Shown piece after piece: positions 230-4,905 of a stretch of DNA of 34,662 nucleotides. Position numbers and translations under genes: made by a program. The stretch lies in NCBI GenBank assembly GCA_964525175.1, contig CAZGFB010000001.1, positions 1-34,662 of the forward strand, given 5' to 3'. The notes below the pieces were generated by a model that was not told where the DNA came from, ran no database searches, and was given only the letters and a program-made list of their open reading frames with translations. This stretch comes from an uncultured Candidatus Saccharibacteria bacterium. GTDB taxonomy: Bacteria > Patescibacteriota > Minisyncoccia > Phycocordibacterales > CAIZIN01. Position 1 is the first letter of the stretch, and every line of letters starts with the position of its first letter.

Positions 230-2992
230 ATGAAATCAACAAAATACGTGTATTCGTTTGGAGGAAAAAAGGCTGACGGAAACGGCAGTATGAAACCACT
301 TCTAGGAGGAAAGGGTGCAAACCTCGCAGAAATGAGTCGAATCGGCTTGCCGGTGCCACCCGGCTTCACAATCACAACAGAAGTTTGTGGTTATTATTAT
401 GACAACAAAAAAACATATCCAAAGACTTTAGAACAAGAAGTTAAGGCTGGTATTTCTGCTATTGAAAAAAACATGGGTGTAAAGTTTGGAAACAAAAATG
501 CTTTACCTCTTCTTGTTTCTGTTCGTTCAGGTGCACGAGACTCAATGCCTGGAATGATGGATACGATTTTAAACCTTGGTCTAAATGATGAGACAGTTCT
601 TGCTTTAGCAAAAGCAACAAACAATGATCGATTCGCATGGGACTGTTACCGACGCTTCATTCAAATGTATGGAGATGTTGTGATGGGTGTTCAAAAGCGA
701 GAAGGTGAAGATCACGAACCTTTTGAAGTTGTGATTGAAACTCTTAAACATGAAACTTATAAAGAAGATATCGACGACTCAAAACTCACAGTTGAAGATT
801 TGAAAAAAATGGTTACTCGTTTCAAAGCTTTGATTAAAGAGCGAACAGGAAAAGCATTTCCACAAGATCCATGGCAACAGCTTTGGGGATCTACTGGAGC
901 AGTTTTTGGTTCATGGATGAACGACCGAGCTTCTGTTTACCGAAGAAAATATAATATTCCAACAGAATGGGGAACAGCGGTGAATATTCAGGCTATGGTA
1001 TATGGAAACACGGGTGTTAAATCTGGTTCAGGTGTGGCCTTTACTCGAAACCCAGCAAACGGTGATAAAGAATTCTGGGGTGAGTTCCTAATTAATGCAC
1101 AAGGTGAAGATGTGGTGGCTGGCGTTCGTACTCCAGAGCCAGTTGAGAAGCTTGTAAATTATTTACCTGAAGCTTACAAAGAATTAATGAAAATTCGAAA
1201 CACTCTTGAGACTCACTTTAAAGATGTGCAGGACCTTGAGTTTACAATTCAAGACGAAAAAGTTTTCATCCTACAAACTCGAAATGGTAAGCGAACAGCG
1301 ATGGCTGCTTTGAAAATTTCTATGGATATGGTGAAGGAAAAACTTATCGATTGGAAAACAGCTATTAAGCGAAACCCAGCAGAACAACTTGATCAACTTC
1401 TAGCGCCGATTTTTGATGTGAAAGCAGAAAAATCTGCAAGAGTTATTGCAAAAGGTTTGCCTGCAGGACCAGGAGCAGCTTCTGGAAAAATTTACTTCAG
1501 TGCAGAGCGTGCAGTTATTGCAGGGGACAAAGGTGAGAAAGTCTTGCTTGTTCGAGCAGAGACAACACCAGAAGACTTGCGAGGAATGATTGCTGCCGAA
1601 GGTATTCTTACAGCGAAAGGTGGAGTTTCTTCACATGCTGCGCTTGTGGCTCGCCAAATGGGTAAAGTTTGTGTTTGCGGAGTTTCATCTTTGCAAATTG
1701 ATTACGATAAAAAGACTTTGACAGCAGGTGGTAATGTATACAAAGAAGGAGACTTCATTTCGATTAACGGAACACTTGGTACTGTTTACGCTGGTGCAAT
1801 AAAAACTGCTCCATCAGAAATTGTTCAAGTTCTTATCGATAAAACACTTAAGCCAAAAGATAGCGAAACATATCAAATGTATGCGACTCTTATGGAATGG
1901 TGTGCAAAGGCAACAAAATTGCAGGTTCGCACAAACGCAGATACTCCTGAACAAGTAGAAAATGCTTTATCGTTTGGTGCAACGGGAGTAGGGCTTGTGC
2001 GTACAGAACATATGTTCTTCGAAGGTGACCGAATTGATGCGATGCGAGAAATGATTCTTGCAGATAATCTAGAAGATCGAAAGAAGGCTTTAGCAAAACT
2101 CTTGCCATATCAAAAAGCAGACTTTGCCGGAATCTTTAAAGCATTGAAAGGCTTCCCAGCAACTATTCGCTTCTTAGATCCACCACTTCACGAATTCCTT
2201 CCTCACGAAGAAAAAGCACAAAAAGATTTGGCTTCCAAAATGAATATTTCAGTTGATAAGATTAAACATCGAATCGAAGAGCTTCACGAGTTCAACCCAA
2301 TGCTTGGTTTTCGTGGATGCCGTTTGGGAATTATCCATCCTGAAATTTCAGAGATGCAGGCACGTGCAGTATTTGAAGCTGCTGTGATGATTCAAAAGAC
2401 AGGTGTGAAAGTAAAACCAGAAATCATGATTCCTCTTGTTGGTTTCAAGAAAGAGCTTGATCTTCAAGTTGAAGTTGTGCACCGAATTGCAAAAGAAGTA
2501 ATGGCAGAAAAGAAAACAAAAGTTGATTATATGGTCGGTACAATGATTGAAGTTCCTCGTGGAGCTTTGACAGCTGATGAAATTGCACAAACAGCACAAT
2601 TCTTTAGTTTTGGAACAAACGACTTAACACAAACATGTTTGGGTATGAGTCGAGACGATTCAGGTTCTTTCATTCCTTCATATCAAGAAAGTGAAATAAT
2701 CAAAATGAATCCTTTTGCTTCTATCGACCAGACTGGTGTTGGAGCGTTGATGAAGATTGCTGTAGAGAAGGGAAATGCTACACGACCTGGAATCAAGATG
2801 GGTATTTGTGGAGAGCACGGAGGCGACCCAGCTTCAGTGAAATTCTGCCACAAGCTTGGTCTTACATATGTAAGCTGTTCTCCATATCGTGTGCCTGTTG
2901 CAAGACTTGCAGCTGCACAATCTGCTCTTGAAGACGAAGCTGTCACAGTTAAAACTGTAAAGAAGGCAGTAAAGAAAGTTTCAAAGAAGTAG
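230..2992 (+). CDS. ppdK: Pyruvate, phosphate dikinase
   Basis: 920-aa ORF with N-terminal nucleotide-binding region ([21 protein letters not shown]), phospho-His swivel motif [15 protein letters not shown] and C-terminal PEP/pyruvate domain with [11 protein letters not shown] terminator hairpin follows. Confidence 0.96.
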
Positions 2993-3010
2993 AAAACTAG
3001 GTTTAAAAAG

Positions 3011-3044
3011 AAAAATCACACAACTTCAAAATTGTGTGATTTTT
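3011..3044. terminator. Bidirectional intrinsic terminator after ppdK
   Basis: AAAAATCACACAA / loop CTTCAAAA / TTGTGTGATTTTT: a 13-bp stem flanked by an A-run and a T-run. Confidence 0.8.
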
Positions 3045-3046
3045 CT

Positions 3047-3283
3047 TTATACATGTAAAAACCCACCGAGCCAAATCTTGGCTGGTGGGTTACGAGTGAG
3101 AGTTAAAGAAGTTTGCTGAGTCTGGACCTCTTTTGCCTCTTTAGCCTTCTCAGATAAGCGCATGTGCTTTCGATCTGATGTGCTTGTTGTTGGATGCAAA
3201 TTTCGAATTCGATTTCGGCGAGCTTTAGTCTTTTCATAATGTATCTCCTTCTTCATATTAAATTCATATTCATTTTGTGTCAA
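3047..3283 (-). CDS. Hypothetical small basic protein; frame uncertain (alternative 44-aa ORF at 3103..3237 in another frame)
   Basis: The 78-aa ORF from the track runs through the terminator hairpin at 3056..3091. The alternative ORF MKRLKLAEIEFEICIQQQAHQIESTCAYLRRLKRQKRSRLSKLL has AAGGAG 7 nt before its ATG and stops about 10 nt before the terminator. No recognisable family for either. Confidence 0.3.
   Translation of the reverse strand: MTQNEYEFNMKKEIHYEKTKARRNRIRNLHPTTSTSDRKHMRLSEKAKEAKEVQTQQTSLTLTRNPPAKIWLGGFLHV
3056..3091 (-). terminator. Intrinsic terminator (minus strand)
   Basis: Minus strand reads ACCCACCAGCC-AAGATTT-GGCTCGGTGGGT followed by TTTTT (stem with a one-base bulge). Confidence 0.7.
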
Positions 3284-3346
3284 ACGATAATCTGCTTTAC
3301 ATTCCGTAATTTTTGTTTTATGTGTGGTTATCCACAGGTATAATTG

Positions 3347-3375
3347 TTGACGGTGAACGGTTGTTCACCTATACT
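3347..3375 (+). promoter_or_regulatory. Near-consensus sigma70-type promoter (TTGACG-17-TATACT) with SOS box in the spacer
   Basis: -35 TTGACG at 3347..3352, exact 17-nt spacer, -10 TATACT at 3370..3375. It reads toward the 67-aa ORF and lexA. Confidence 0.7.
3352..3369. promoter_or_regulatory. LexA operator (Cheo/SOS box, GAAC-N4-GTTC type)
   Basis: Perfect palindrome GGTGAAC-GGTT-GTTCACC. The core GAACGGTTGTTC matches the Gram-positive-type LexA box CGAACnnnnGTTCG. It is the only GAAC-N4-GTTC I found in the window, and lexA lies about 0.55 kb downstream on the same strand. Confidence 0.7.
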
Positions 3376-3482
3376 ATATATATACAAATAATTTACCCAC
3401 CAAAATTTTAATGTCATCCTACAAAATTTTCTATTCGAAAATTTAGAAGGACAAGAAAACTTAGGGGGGGGCAAGCAATCAT

Positions 3483-3686
3483 ATGAGTAGCAACACTTTC
3501 AAAAAAGCCATAGAGCAAGAGTTAAGAAAACTCAATGAAGAAATCGATAGTAAAATCGTAAAAGGTCTTTCATATATGAAGGAGTCTAAAAGGCATAAAA
3601 CTTTGTTAAGACAATTGAATAGTTTTAATCGTCATACAAGTTTATTTCAAAGATCATTCAATTTAGTAACAACATTTCTATTATAA
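3483..3686 (+). CDS. Hypothetical 67-aa protein, first ORF downstream of the SOS-box promoter
   Basis: ORF with a coiled-coil-like N-terminal half and a short hydrophobic C-terminus (FNLVTTFLL). No family recognised. Its position between the SOS box and lexA is the only support. Confidence 0.4.
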   Translation: MSSNTFKKAIEQELRKLNEEIDSKIVKGLSYMKESKRHKTLLRQLNSFNRHTSLFQRSFNLVTTFLL

Positions 3687-3724
3687 TTCAATTAATTTCA
3701 TTTCCAATTAACCTCTTCGTATTT

Positions 3725-3881
3725 GTCATTCCTGCGGAGGCAGATTCACAAGTATTTTTCTGGAGAAAAATCTTCTGAACACGACTCAGCCCGTCGGCTT
3801 CCGTCCTTGCAGTCTGGTCCCATCCCGACTTCACCAGTCTGAAAATTTAAATCATGGATTCCCGATCAGGTCGGGAATGAC
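3725..3881. repeat. Composite hairpin repeat (element B + inverted short unit)
   Basis: Starts GTCATTCCTGCGGAGG and ends GGATTCCCGATCAGGTCGGGAATGAC. Homologous in inverted orientation to 8514..8671. Confidence 0.85.
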
Positions 3882-3893
3882 ATGCGGGGAGGG

Positions 3894-3918
3894 ATTCATA
3901 ATTCTTAATTCATAATTC
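3894..3918. repeat. Single arm of the AT-rich ATTCATAATTCTTAATTC repeat family
   Basis: ATTCATAATTCTTAATTCATAATTC lies immediately upstream of the lexA ATG. The same motif forms inverted-repeat pairs at 19252..19337, 20780..20887 and 31066..31144. Confidence 0.7.
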
Positions 3919-3926
3919 TACTCATC

Positions 3927-4490
3927 ATGAACGAATATAAAAATAAAATTGTTTCTTTCTACCATCGACATCGAAGAATGCCGAGCTATCAGGAGATTAT
4001 GGACTTGGTGGGTTTTAAGTCTAAAAATGCTGTATATAAACTAATTGAAAAACTCGTAGATGAGGGTATTGTCACAAAAGATAAAAAAGGGAAACTTATC
4101 CCAAGTAACAGGCTGGATGAAATCCCAATTCTTGGTCTGGTGGAGGCGGGCTTCCCAACCACTATGGATGAGGAAATGACAGACACAATGAGTATTGATG
4201 AATATTTAATTGATCATAAAGATTCCACATATCTACTAGAAGTTAAAGGGGATTCAATGATTGATGCTGGAATATATGAAAAAGATTTGGTGATTGTGGA
4301 AAGAAAAGGTGAAGCAAAAGTTGGTGATATTGTGATAGCCGAAGTTGATGGAGGATGGACAATGAAATATTACAGAATGGACGGACATAAAGCTTATCTT
4401 GAGCCTGCTAATAAAAAATACAAACCAATATATCCAAAAGAAGGCCTGCGTATTGCAGCTATTGTGAAAGGGGTGATTAGAAAATACTAA
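3927..4490 (+). CDS. lexA: LexA repressor (S24 peptidase)
   Basis: N-terminal winged-helix region (SYQEIMDLVGFKSKNAVYKLIEKLVDEGIV), Ala-Gly cleavage site in LVEAGFP, Ser nucleophile in GDSMIDAGI and Lys in TMKYY. Confidence 0.9.
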   Translation: MNEYKNKIVSFYHRHRRMPSYQEIMDLVGFKSKNAVYKLIEKLVDEGIVTKDKKGKLIPSNRLDEIPILGLVEAGFPTTMDEEMTDTMSIDEYLIDHKDSTYLLEVKGDSMIDAGIYEKDLVIVERKGEAKVGDIVIAEVDGGWTMKYYRMDGHKAYLEPANKKYKPIYPKEGLRIAAIVKGVIRKY

Positions 4491-4500
4491 TAAATAACAT

Positions 4501-4537
4501 ACAAAAAACTCTCAGACTAATTCTGAGAGTTTTTTGT
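4501..4537. terminator. Bidirectional terminator between convergent lexA and DUF1059 genes
   Basis: ACAAAAAACTCTCAGA-CTAAT-TCTGAGAGTTTTTTGT. Confidence 0.85.
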
Positions 4538-4544
4538 ATGGGCG

Positions 4545-4733
4545 CTATTCGTGCACTTTTGATTCGAGCGTTTTCATTATCTCATCGTTGCTCATTTTCA
4601 TTTCTTTCATTTCATCTGGATGTGCATTTTTCATGTGATTCATCATTTTCATAGCCACTTCTTCTTCTGATGCACCATGAGCCTCAAAACCACAGTCTAT
4701 ATTTGGATCAATATCCTTGCATGATAGTTTCAT
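4545..4733 (-). CDS. DUF1059-like small metal-binding protein
   Basis: 62 aa. MKLSCKDIDPNIDCGFEAHGASEEEVAMKMMNHMKNAHPDE matches the C-x-D-x-G-x-DCGF...H pattern remembered for DUF1059. Confidence 0.7.
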   Translation of the reverse strand: MKLSCKDIDPNIDCGFEAHGASEEEVAMKMMNHMKNAHPDEMKEMKMSNDEIMKTLESKVHE

Positions 4734-4905
4734 AATTTTAATATATTAACTTGATAATATTATTAGCAGATTATTACTAAAAAATTACGACCTTCTAACC
4801 TAATTATTATAAATAATTAATACTGAAATTATTGTGAAGATGAAATTTAATATTTTTTGCTTTTAAAAGAGGTGGTTGTAGAATGAAAAGAGAAATGAAA
4901 TATTA

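What the first reader, a model, noticed from the sequence alone, without database searches (positions are those of the whole stretch)
3328..3686. Perfect Gram-positive-type SOS box embedded in a consensus promoter driving a small ORF and lexA
TTGACG-17-TATACT (3347..3375) has its spacer filled by the perfect palindrome GGTGAAC-GGTT-GTTCACC. Its core GAAC-N4-GTTC is the established LexA (Cheo) box of Firmicutes, Actinobacteria and related groups. I found no other GAAC-N4-GTTC in the 34.7 kb. Downstream on the same strand lie a 67-aa ORF (3483..3686), a repeat element and lexA (3927..4490), with no terminator until 4501. The likely unit is therefore an autoregulated smallORF-lexA operon. Small SOS-induced proteins next to lexA are often division inhibitors (YneA, SidA, ChiZ), so this ORF is a candidate, though that is only an analogy. 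The box could also control the divergent small ORF at 3047..3283. A consensus DnaA box TTATCCACA sits 12 nt upstream (3328..3336).
Basis: partly seen in the sequence, partly recalled or inferred. Interest (0 to 1): 0.6.

Follow-up and report, generated by a model that had tools for sequence, protein, structure and literature searches.

The report
LexA- and DnaA-box SOS operon promoter
This is the self-repressed DNA-damage (SOS) operon of a tiny uncultured Patescibacteria bacterium: the LexA site is an ordinary, already described kind, but related genomes also keep a replication-initiator (DnaA) box beside it and an uncharacterised small basic protein as the first gene.

Summary
The sequence is as described. 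TTGACG(3347)-17-TATACT(3375) has its spacer filled by the perfect palindrome GGTGAAC-GGTT-GTTCACC. A 67-aa ORF, a repeat and lexA follow, and the first terminator is at 4498-4540. One claim is wrong: the window holds three more GAAC-N4-GTTC sites, all inside long ORFs.

- In 76 of 80 related Patescibacteria lexA loci the same box fills the same promoter spacer.
- 66 of the 80 carry a homologue of the small ORF next to lexA.
- In 25 of the 80 a Y-family polymerase gene follows lexA.
- In this genome the extended motif TGAAC-N4-GTTCA occurs 7 times against about 1 expected. Six sites are intergenic, next to lexA, a Y-family polymerase, dprA, the RNase Y gene and others.

The DnaA-type box is not incidental. 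It is present with at most one mismatch in 64 of 77 promoters, always in the same orientation. In 52 of the 64 it lies 15-18 nt before GAAC, and in 8 more 8-10 nt before it.

The small protein is a basic helical hairpin with no Pfam family and no membrane segment. That does not fit a YneA/SidA-type membrane division inhibitor.

In this genome two dispersed repeats have been inserted into the operon. Transcript data could not be obtained. This scan has recorded the same arrangement in at least 60 other genomes.

The parts
3328..3336 (+). DnaA-box-type 9-mer TTATCCACA, 10 nt upstream of the -35
   Evidence: Exact match. Present with at most one mismatch in 64 of 77 orthologous promoters, always in forward orientation. 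The gap to GAAC is 15-18 nt in 52 loci and 8-10 nt in 8 loci; controls gave 0-3 hits. Of 47 exact copies in 413 kb of related loci, 39 lie within 60 nt of the lexA box. The dnaA-dnaN spacer of this genome holds the densest cluster of such boxes.
3347..3352 (+). -35 hexamer TTGACG
   Evidence: The consensus in relatives is TTGaca or TTGcag at the same place.
3352..3369 (.). LexA operator: perfect palindrome GGTGAAC-GGTT-GTTCACC filling the -35/-10 spacer
   Evidence: 76 of 80 related lexA loci carry GGTGAAC-N4-GTTCAC at the same place, with conserved arms and a variable N4. TGAAC-N4-GTTCA occurs 7 times in the genome against about 1 expected.
3370..3375 (+). -10 hexamer TATACT; the transcript start is inferred near 3382
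   Evidence: In 5 relatives the small-ORF ATG lies 6-7 nt after this hexamer, giving leaderless mRNAs. That supports the -10 assignment.
3407..3482 (+). Dispersed-repeat insertion in the 5' untranslated region, absent from the nearest relative
   Evidence: Gap in the alignment with L002. The same sequence recurs at G000:C15 and C27 and in same-genus genomes.
3483..3686 (+). Conserved 67-aa small basic protein, first gene of the operon
   Evidence: Homologues lie next to lexA in 66 of 80 loci. Alignment A1 has invariant N18, D22, I25, Y31, H38 and L41. 392 cluster representatives match at E<=1e-3. There is no Pfam or PDB match. AlphaFold2 gives a helical hairpin with pLDDT 84.6. Median net charge is +9 and there is no transmembrane stretch.
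3690..3926 (+). Composite dispersed repeat (hairpin-forming, MITE-like) inserted between the small ORF and lexA
   Evidence: At least 46 matches in the genome. Absent from L002, where the gap is 64 nt. It folds as a long hairpin (-62.9 kcal/mol, z -2.3) and has no terminator-like site.
3927..4490 (+). lexA (187 aa)
   Evidence: Peptidase_S24 at 1.4e-26; LexA_DNA_bind scores 18.9 bits, below its cut-off. Best PDB matches are LexA repressors (6e-17), and the VEAGFP, GDSM and TMKYY motifs align to the E. coli cleavage site, Ser and Lys.
4498..4540 (.). Hairpin terminator shared with the convergent DUF1059 gene (4545-4733, minus strand)

Best explanation
Positions 3328-3375 form the control region of the SOS master operon of a Patescibacteria (Paceibacteria-type) bacterium. 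A LexA dimer binds the palindrome GGTGAAC-N4-GTTCACC, which occupies the whole spacer between a near-consensus -35 and -10. This blocks RNA polymerase. After DNA damage, RecA-stimulated self-cleavage of LexA frees the promoter. The transcript encodes a conserved 67-residue basic helical-hairpin protein and then LexA itself, so the circuit is autoregulated. A DnaA-type box about 50 nt upstream of the inferred start is a second, conserved input. It most likely couples the operon to replication status through DnaA. In this genome two dispersed repeats have been inserted, one into the 5' leader and one between the two genes. Neither has a recognisable terminator, so read-through to lexA is the likeliest state.

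What is shown:
- The sequence features.
- Their conservation and fixed spacing in relatives.
- The LexA hallmarks of the gene product.
- The genome-wide enrichment of the motif.

What is inferred:
- Binding of LexA and of DnaA to these sites.
- Co-transcription in this genome.
- The role of the small protein. My best guess is a nucleic-acid- or LexA/RecA/polymerase-binding modulator of the damage response, not a membrane division inhibitor.
For: **Promoter and palindrome.** They are exact in the sequence.

**Related loci.**
- 76 of 80 related lexA loci have the same box in the same promoter spacer.
- The small ORF is conserved as a protein in 66 of 80 loci. It is usually 3-60 nt from lexA or overlaps it.
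- In a sample of the order, 53 of 201 genomes have the small ORF. 51 of those also have an orthologous lexA, nearly always adjacent.
- A Y-family polymerase gene directly follows lexA in 25 of 80 loci.

**This genome.**
- The separate Y-family polymerase gene has its own TGAAC-N4-GTTCA box, with a DnaA box 13 nt away.
- TGAAC-N4-GTTCA occurs 7 times against about 1 expected, and 6 of the 7 sites are intergenic.
- The LexA gene product has an S24 domain and aligned cleavage-site and catalytic motifs.
- There is no terminator between 3375 and 4498.

**DnaA box.**
- It is present in 64 of 77 promoters, in fixed orientation. The gap to GAAC is 15-18 nt in 52 and 8-10 nt in 8; control motifs gave 0-3 hits.
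- About 42 of 47 exact copies in 413 kb of related loci lie at lexA promoters.
- Six boxes with at most one mismatch lie in the 229-nt dnaA-dnaN spacer of this genome.
Against:
- recA shows no GAAC-N4-GTTC within 300 nt upstream in 28 relatives. The regulon is therefore small and atypical, and the link to RecA is assumed.
- The own-genome recA promoter is missing, because the gene is cut at a contig end.
- Sites with one mismatch are not enriched: 19 found against about 30 expected.
- About 240 nt of structured repeat now lies between the small ORF and lexA, and it could attenuate read-through.
- Three of the six intergenic sites share a longer 26-38-nt palindrome and lack an obvious -35. They may be something other than LexA operators.
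- The 9-mer TTATCCACA may be bound by a factor other than DnaA.
Confidence: 0.8

Rival explanations
1. In this genome the repeat insertion has uncoupled lexA from the SOS promoter. lexA is then transcribed from a start inside or at the end of the repeat (for example CATAAT at 3911-3916), and only the small ORF remains under LexA control.
For: - A 237-nt structured repeat lies between the genes. It is absent from the nearest relative, where the gap is 64 nt.
- CATAAT hexamers lie at 3897-3902 and 3911-3916.
Against: - The consensus scan finds no promoter-like site on the + strand between 3400 and 4045.
- It finds no terminator-like site before 4498.
- No -35 lies at the right distance from either CATAAT.
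Confidence: 0.15
2. The conserved TTATCCACA is not a DnaA site. It is instead an upstream promoter element, or the site of another factor specific to these SOS promoters.
For: - There is only one box per promoter, whereas DnaA usually acts on pairs or clusters of boxes.
- The fixed spacing to the -35 would also suit an RNA-polymerase contact or a class I activator.
Against: - The 9-mer is the exact consensus DnaA box.
- The same box type clusters in the dnaA-dnaN spacer of this genome: 6 within 229 nt, the densest cluster in the genome.
- It is rare elsewhere in related loci, about 5 copies in 413 kb, so it is not a general promoter element.
- DnaA and LexA are already known to share a promoter at E. 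coli uvrB (PMC6015884).
Confidence: 0.25
3. The small ORF is an SOS cell-division inhibitor, as the first reader suggested by analogy with YneA, SidA and ChiZ.
For: - It is a small gene under the LexA box, next to lexA, and conserved with it.
- Its C-terminal tail is rich in aromatic and hydrophobic residues and weakly amphipathic, with a mean z of 0.67.
Against: - It has no transmembrane-length hydrophobic stretch; the longest run is 13 residues and the median is 7.
- Median net charge is +9.
- It has no LysM or any other Pfam domain.
- The fold is a soluble-looking helical hairpin.
Confidence: 0.2
4. The palindrome is the operator of a different repressor, and its link to lexA is only positional.
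For: Binding was not tested. Three other sites with this core sit in longer palindromes.
Against: - The window's gene is the only HTH-S24 LexA homologue found in this genome; the other strong S24 match has no HTH.
- The GAAC-N4-GTTC core is the established LexA motif of Gram-positive-type lineages.
- The box is conserved upstream of lexA in 76 of 80 loci, and also upstream of a Y-family polymerase gene.
Confidence: 0.04

Closest known systems
Autoregulated lexA (dinR) promoter with a Cheo box in Bacillus subtilis and other Gram-positive-type lineages (established knowledge; reviewed in PMC9578287)
   Same: It shares the palindromic GAAC-N4-GTTC core, an operator that overlaps the lexA promoter, and an S24 self-cleaving wHTH repressor that controls its own gene and a translesion polymerase.
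   Different: - The flanking bases are T/A (GTGAAC...GTTCAC), not C/G (CGAAC...GTTCG).
- The operator fills the -35/-10 spacer exactly.
- lexA is the second gene, after a small protein gene.
- recA shows no box in the 28 relatives examined.
SOS network of the Patescibacteria: Sanchez-Osuna, Barbe and Erill 2017, Environ Microbiol 19:3465 (PMID 28618189; cited in PMC8565304 and PMC7739468; full text not held, so details are from memory only)
   Same: It concerns the same phylum, and it defined a LexA-binding motif and a small SOS regulon by comparative genomics.
   Different: I could not read the paper. I therefore cannot say whether it reports the small upstream ORF or the DnaA box. I recall neither, and that recollection is a lead, not a test.
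E. coli uvrB promoter region, co-regulated by DnaA and LexA (PMC6015884)
   Same: A DnaA box and a LexA box lie in one SOS promoter region.
   Different: In E. coli this is one downstream SOS gene with several promoters. Here the pairing sits at the master lexA operon (and at the Y-family polymerase gene), with one box at a fixed orientation and spacing, conserved across an order.
B. subtilis yneA-yneB-ynzC operon next to lexA (YneA division inhibitor: PMC13396833, PMC6051672; YnzC as a small helical-hairpin SOS protein is from memory)
   Same: Small SOS-induced genes lie beside lexA. YnzC, like this protein, is recalled to be a short two-helix hairpin.
   Different: - That operon is divergent from lexA; here the genes are co-directional.
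- This protein has no transmembrane segment or LysM domain, unlike YneA.
- It has no Pfam DUF896 match, unlike YnzC.
DdrR, the small co-regulator encoded beside the LexA-like repressor UmuDAb in Acinetobacter (from memory; UmuDAb is described in PMC8565304)
   Same: A small lineage-restricted protein gene is linked to the SOS repressor gene. This gives a precedent for a small partner that modulates the repressor.
   Different: No sequence similarity was tested. The gene arrangement and the lineage differ.

Membership tests
LexA repressor (wHTH + Peptidase S24) | C-terminal S24 self-cleaving domain with an Ala-Gly site and a Ser/Lys dyad | tested here: met
   PF00717 at 1.4e-26. VEAGFP, GDSM and TMKYY align to VAAGEP, GMSM and TVKRL of E. 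coli LexA.
LexA repressor (wHTH + Peptidase S24) | N-terminal LexA-type winged helix-turn-helix | tested here: inconclusive
   PF01726 scores 18.9 bits, below the 23.7 cut-off. The phmmer alignment to E. coli LexA does run from residue 18 through the HTH.
LexA repressor (wHTH + Peptidase S24) | RecA-stimulated cleavage and operator binding | not testable with these tools
   Needs protein biochemistry.
Gram-positive-type (Cheo) LexA operator | Palindromic GAAC-N4-GTTC core overlapping the promoter of lexA | tested here: met
   Positions 3355-3366 lie inside the 17-nt spacer. The same holds in 76 of 80 relatives.
Gram-positive-type (Cheo) LexA operator | B. subtilis-type flanks CGAAC...GTTCG | tested here: not met
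   Here and in most relatives the flanks give GTGAAC...GTTCAC. Only L063 and L069 have CGAAC...GTTCG.
Gram-positive-type (Cheo) LexA operator | Genome-wide enrichment at DNA-damage genes | tested here: met
   7 sites against about 1 expected, 6 of them intergenic: lexA, Y-family polymerase, dprA, rny and two others. recA is not included in the relatives examined.
DnaA box | 9-mer matching TTATCCACA | tested here: met
   Exact match at 3328-3336.
DnaA box | The same box type clusters at the replication origin next to dnaA in the same genome | tested here: met
   Six boxes with at most one mismatch lie in the 229-nt dnaA-dnaN spacer of C6. This is the densest cluster in the genome.
DnaA box | DnaA binding and an effect on transcription | not testable with these tools
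   Conservation and fixed spacing indicate function but do not identify the factor.
Membrane-anchored SOS division inhibitors (YneA, SidA, ChiZ, SosA) | Small LexA-controlled gene beside lexA | tested here: met
Membrane-anchored SOS division inhibitors (YneA, SidA, ChiZ, SosA) | Transmembrane segment (and LysM in YneA and ChiZ) | tested here: not met
   The longest stretch without charged or amide residues in the last 30 residues has a median of 7 and a maximum of 13. Net charge is +9. No Pfam domain was found.
Membrane-anchored SOS division inhibitors (YneA, SidA, ChiZ, SosA) | Blocks division when expressed | not testable with these tools
   Needs expression in a laboratory strain.
YnzC / DUF896 | Sequence membership in the Pfam family | tested here: not met
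   None of the 55 members hits DUF896 at E<=1. No YnzC chain appears in the PDB profile search, nor in the top 50 Foldseek hits.

The most novel reading that the evidence does not exclude
In this order of Patescibacteria the SOS master promoter is gated by two proteins, LexA in the spacer and DnaA at about -50. Its first product is then a new class of basic helical-hairpin effector that acts on DNA or on LexA, RecA or the Y-family polymerase. Together these would form a minimal damage-and-replication checkpoint in bacteria with genomes of about 0.7 Mb.
Probability: 0.35. Interest if true: 0.65.

Novelty: new variant of a known kind. Interest (0 to 1): 0.45.

Why it matters
LexA autoregulation through a GAAC-N4-GTTC box is textbook and has been described for Patescibacteria, so the operator itself adds little. 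Two things are worth keeping.

- **A constant DnaA-type box on the master SOS promoter.** Its orientation and spacing are fixed. This would tie the damage response directly to replication initiation, in organisms with very few regulators.
- **A conserved, unnamed small basic protein that travels with lexA.** I found 392 cluster representatives, and an intact copy only in genomes that also have lexA. It is a concrete candidate for a missing SOS function in bacteria that show no LexA box at recA and have only a handful of LexA sites.

Both points can be tested with simple biochemistry, because the parts are short.

Tried and rejected
- **Rfam.** Searches of the window and of three other box-bearing loci found nothing.
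- **Function of the small protein.**
  - Pfam on the protein and on all 55 aligned members gave nothing above noise.
  - A PDB profile search gave only ribosomal protein bS20 at E=0.3, which I put down to composition.
  - Foldseek on the AlphaFold2 model gave only generic helical hairpins at E>1.
- **recA as a regulon member.** The gene is cut at a contig end here. 28 relatives show no box within 300 nt upstream.
- **The divergent ORFs at 3047-3283 and 3103-3237.** They have no homologue in the 80 loci, and the region is not conserved even within the genus. I found no support for their being part of the system.
- **Synteny.** The flanking genes (pyruvate phosphate dikinase, DUF1059) are not linked to lexA in relatives.
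- **Relaxed motif.** Allowing one mismatch gave no enrichment.
- **A second LexA-like repressor.** I looked for one to explain the three long palindromes. The only other strong S24 protein is a helicase fusion without an HTH.
- **Other TTATCCACA copies in the genome.** I looked for a DnaA regulon among them, but the result was uninformative.
- **The 2017 Patescibacteria SOS paper.** It is not held in the library.

Full report
**1. Observation**

The sequence reads gg-TTATCCACA-ggtataattg-TTGACG-GTGAACGGTTGTTCACC-TATACT. The features and their coordinates are:

| Feature | Coordinates |
|---|---|
| TTATCCACA | 3328-3336 |
| -35 TTGACG | 3347-3352 |
| Palindrome GGTGAAC/GGTT/GTTCACC | 3352-3369 |
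| -10 TATACT | 3370-3375 |

- This is the best promoter-like match in 2950-4750, at 10 of 12 positions with a 17-nt spacer. The only terminator-like hairpin in that stretch is at 4498-4540.
- The 67-aa ORF (3483-3686) and the 187-aa ORF (3927-4490) are as described.
- One statement is wrong. GAAC-N4-GTTC occurs four times in the window (2006, 3355, 13305, 28012) against 0.42 expected. The other three sites lie inside long ORFs.
- The DnaA-type box is 10 nt, not 12, from the -35.

**2. The organism and the repressor**

- The window is contig C1 of a 767-kb, 36% G+C, 98-contig genome that is 77% complete.
- Relatives of the 187-aa protein all come from Patescibacteria, Paceibacterota or Parcubacteria metagenome-assembled genomes.
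- The protein has a Peptidase_S24 domain (1.4e-26) and a sub-threshold LexA DNA-binding match.
- Its best solved relatives are LexA repressors (6e-17). The cleavage site (VEAGFP), the Ser motif (GDSM) and the Lys motif (TMKYY) all align.
- It is the only HTH-S24 protein found in the genome. The other strong S24 match is a helicase fusion.

**3. The operator**

*Across relatives.* I fetched 80 related lexA loci, with LexA identity of 56-90%.
- 76 of them have GAAC-N4-GTTC upstream of lexA. In nearly all it takes the form TTGaca-GGTGAAC-N4-GTTCACc-TATAcT.
- The arms are conserved and the central four bases vary freely. That pattern fits a dimeric repressor site that fills a promoter spacer.
- In five relatives the first start codon lies 6-7 nt after the -10. 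This gives leaderless mRNAs and supports the promoter assignment.

*In this genome.*
- The core GAAC-N4-GTTC occurs 16 times.
- The extended TGAAC-N4-GTTCA occurs 7 times against about 1 expected. One-mismatch variants are not enriched.
- Six of the seven sites are intergenic:

| Site | Context |
|---|---|
| C1 (this window) | small ORF and lexA |
| C2:6633 | 16 nt before a Y-family (IMS) polymerase gene; a TATAAT lies 6 nt before its ATG |
| C12:4251 | overlaps the ribosome-binding site of the RNase Y gene; conserved in three other genomes of the genus with a variable N4 |
| C25:7650 | next to dprA |
| C28:2910 | next to an unknown 164-aa ORF |
| C8:17250 | next to a 251-aa ORF and an FtsW/RodA gene |

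- The last three sites share a 26-38-nt palindrome and nothing else. Their status as LexA operators is open.

*Size of the regulon.*
- Relatives carry only 0-4 perfect sites each.
- recA has no box within 300 nt upstream in 28 relatives.
- The regulon is therefore very small.

**4. The operon**

- A homologue of the small ORF lies next to lexA in 66 of the 80 loci. It is usually upstream, with a gap of 3-60 nt or an overlap, and occasionally downstream.
- The 14 loci without it have the box 27-61 nt before lexA itself.
- In 25 loci a Y-family polymerase gene directly follows lexA.
- In an even sample of the order, 53 of 201 genomes have the small ORF. 51 of those have an orthologous lexA, nearly always adjacent. 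The two exceptions look like remnants.
- In a phylum-wide sample it was found only in the two same-order genomes.
- These genomes are related to one another, so the counts describe the distribution and are not independent trials.

**5. What is special in this genome**

- The nearest relative is L002, with 90% LexA identity. Against it, this genome has two insertions:
  - about 76 nt in the leader (3407-3482);
  - about 240 nt between the small ORF and lexA (3690-3926).
- Both insertions belong to dispersed repeat families of this genome. The second has at least 46 matches.
- The second insertion folds as a long hairpin, but no U-tract terminator follows it, and no promoter-like site was found inside it.
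- Read-through to lexA is therefore likely but not shown.

**6. The DnaA-type box**

This is the most interesting part.
- Exact TTATCCACA lies just upstream of the -35 in 40 of 77 promoters. With one mismatch allowed, the count is 64 of 77.
- It is always in the same orientation. The gap to GAAC is 15-18 nt in 52 loci and 8-10 nt in 8 loci. Reverse-complement and reversed control motifs gave 0-3 hits.
- In 413 kb of related loci there are 47 exact copies. 39 lie within 60 nt of the lexA box, and three more lie at lexA promoters with degenerate or duplicated sites.
- The Y-family polymerase promoter of this genome also has the box, in the opposite orientation. The promoter of a same-genus relative has a one-mismatch forward copy.
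- The 229-nt dnaA-dnaN spacer of this genome holds six boxes with at most one mismatch, the densest cluster in the genome. The organism's DnaA very probably recognises this sequence.
- A shared DnaA and LexA promoter is known for E. coli uvrB (PMC6015884). I found no paper that reports it for a lexA operon.

**7. The small protein**

- Alignment A1 (55 sequences) has invariant N18, D22, I25, Y31, H38 and L41.
- A profile search of 1.84 billion representatives finds 392 proteins at E<=1e-3. All of the 150 best that are listed are short, 48-130 residues.
- There is no Pfam family, no PDB sequence match and no source annotation beyond 'hypothetical protein'.
- AlphaFold2 with this alignment gives a two-helix hairpin (helices 3-27 and 32-66) with mean pLDDT 84.6; the tail is less confident. 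Foldseek returns only generic hairpins.
- The family is strongly basic, with a median net charge of +9. It has no hydrophobic stretch long enough to span a membrane, and its aromatic C-terminal tail is only weakly amphipathic.
- These features argue against a YneA/SidA/ChiZ-type membrane inhibitor. They leave open a nucleic-acid-binding protein or a modulator that binds LexA, RecA or the polymerase. The function remains inferred.

**8. Comparison and novelty**

- The operator and the autoregulation are a known kind: the Cheo-box type, but with T/A rather than C/G flanks.
- An SOS network for Patescibacteria was published in 2017 (PMID 28618189, cited in PMC8565304). I could not read that paper.
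- The constant DnaA box and the conserved small first gene look like a lineage-specific variant of the SOS master operon.
- This scan has already recorded the same arrangement in at least 60 other genomes. I re-tested each element here and did not rely on those notes.

**9. Verdict**

- This is a real, conserved SOS control region.
- Interest is moderate: the operator is ordinary, while the DnaA coupling and the unknown protein are worth an experiment.

Noticed in passing
G000:C37:5349-7445 (open frame, + strand; own genome, outside the window): A 676-aa protein joins a Schlafen-group-3/DUF2075-type helicase domain (PF09848, 4e-70) to a C-terminal LexA-like Peptidase_S24 domain (5e-20). It has CG, GDSM and K motifs and no HTH. 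Similar S24-tailed frames of 450-700 aa occur in many genomes of the same order. It may be a RecA-activated helicase or a defence protein.
   Followed up: partly
G000:C8:17238-17263, C25:7638-7675, C28:2898-2924 (own genome): Three intergenic sites share ATACATCTATACTGAACGATCGTTCA, and the C25 copy is a perfect 38-bp palindrome. Only these 26-27 nt are shared among the three. They lie next to dprA, an unknown 164-aa ORF, and a 251-aa ORF with FtsW/RodA. Whether they are LexA operators or sites for another factor is unexplained.
   Followed up: partly
G000:C12:4247-4272 (own genome); L118, L119, L120: TGAAC-N4-GTTCA overlaps the ribosome-binding site of the RNase Y gene and ends 5 nt before its ATG. 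It is conserved in four genomes of the genus, with a variable N4. This suggests LexA control of RNase Y.
   Followed up: partly
window 3690-3926 and 3407-3482: Two dispersed-repeat insertions lie inside the SOS operon and are absent from the nearest relative. The larger one belongs to a modular family with at least 46 matches in 767 kb.
   Followed up: yes
G000:C6:10289-10517 (own genome): The dnaA-dnaN spacer holds six DnaA-type boxes with at most one mismatch and is the likely replication origin. ATATCCACAGGGTATAAT before dnaN resembles TTATCCACAGGTATAAT at window 3328-3344.
   Followed up: partly
window 3047-3283 (minus strand): The divergent 78-aa and 44-aa ORFs have no homologue in the 80 related loci. 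The region is not conserved at the DNA level even within the genus.
   Followed up: partly
L004, L026, L038, L048, L064: In these relatives the small-ORF ATG lies 6-7 nt after the -10 hexamer, which implies leaderless mRNAs from the SOS promoter.
   Followed up: no
L087-L114 (recA loci of 28 relatives): recA has no GAAC-N4-GTTC within 300 nt upstream. In many relatives a co-directional coding region runs up to it. recA seems to lie outside the LexA regulon in this order.
   Followed up: partly
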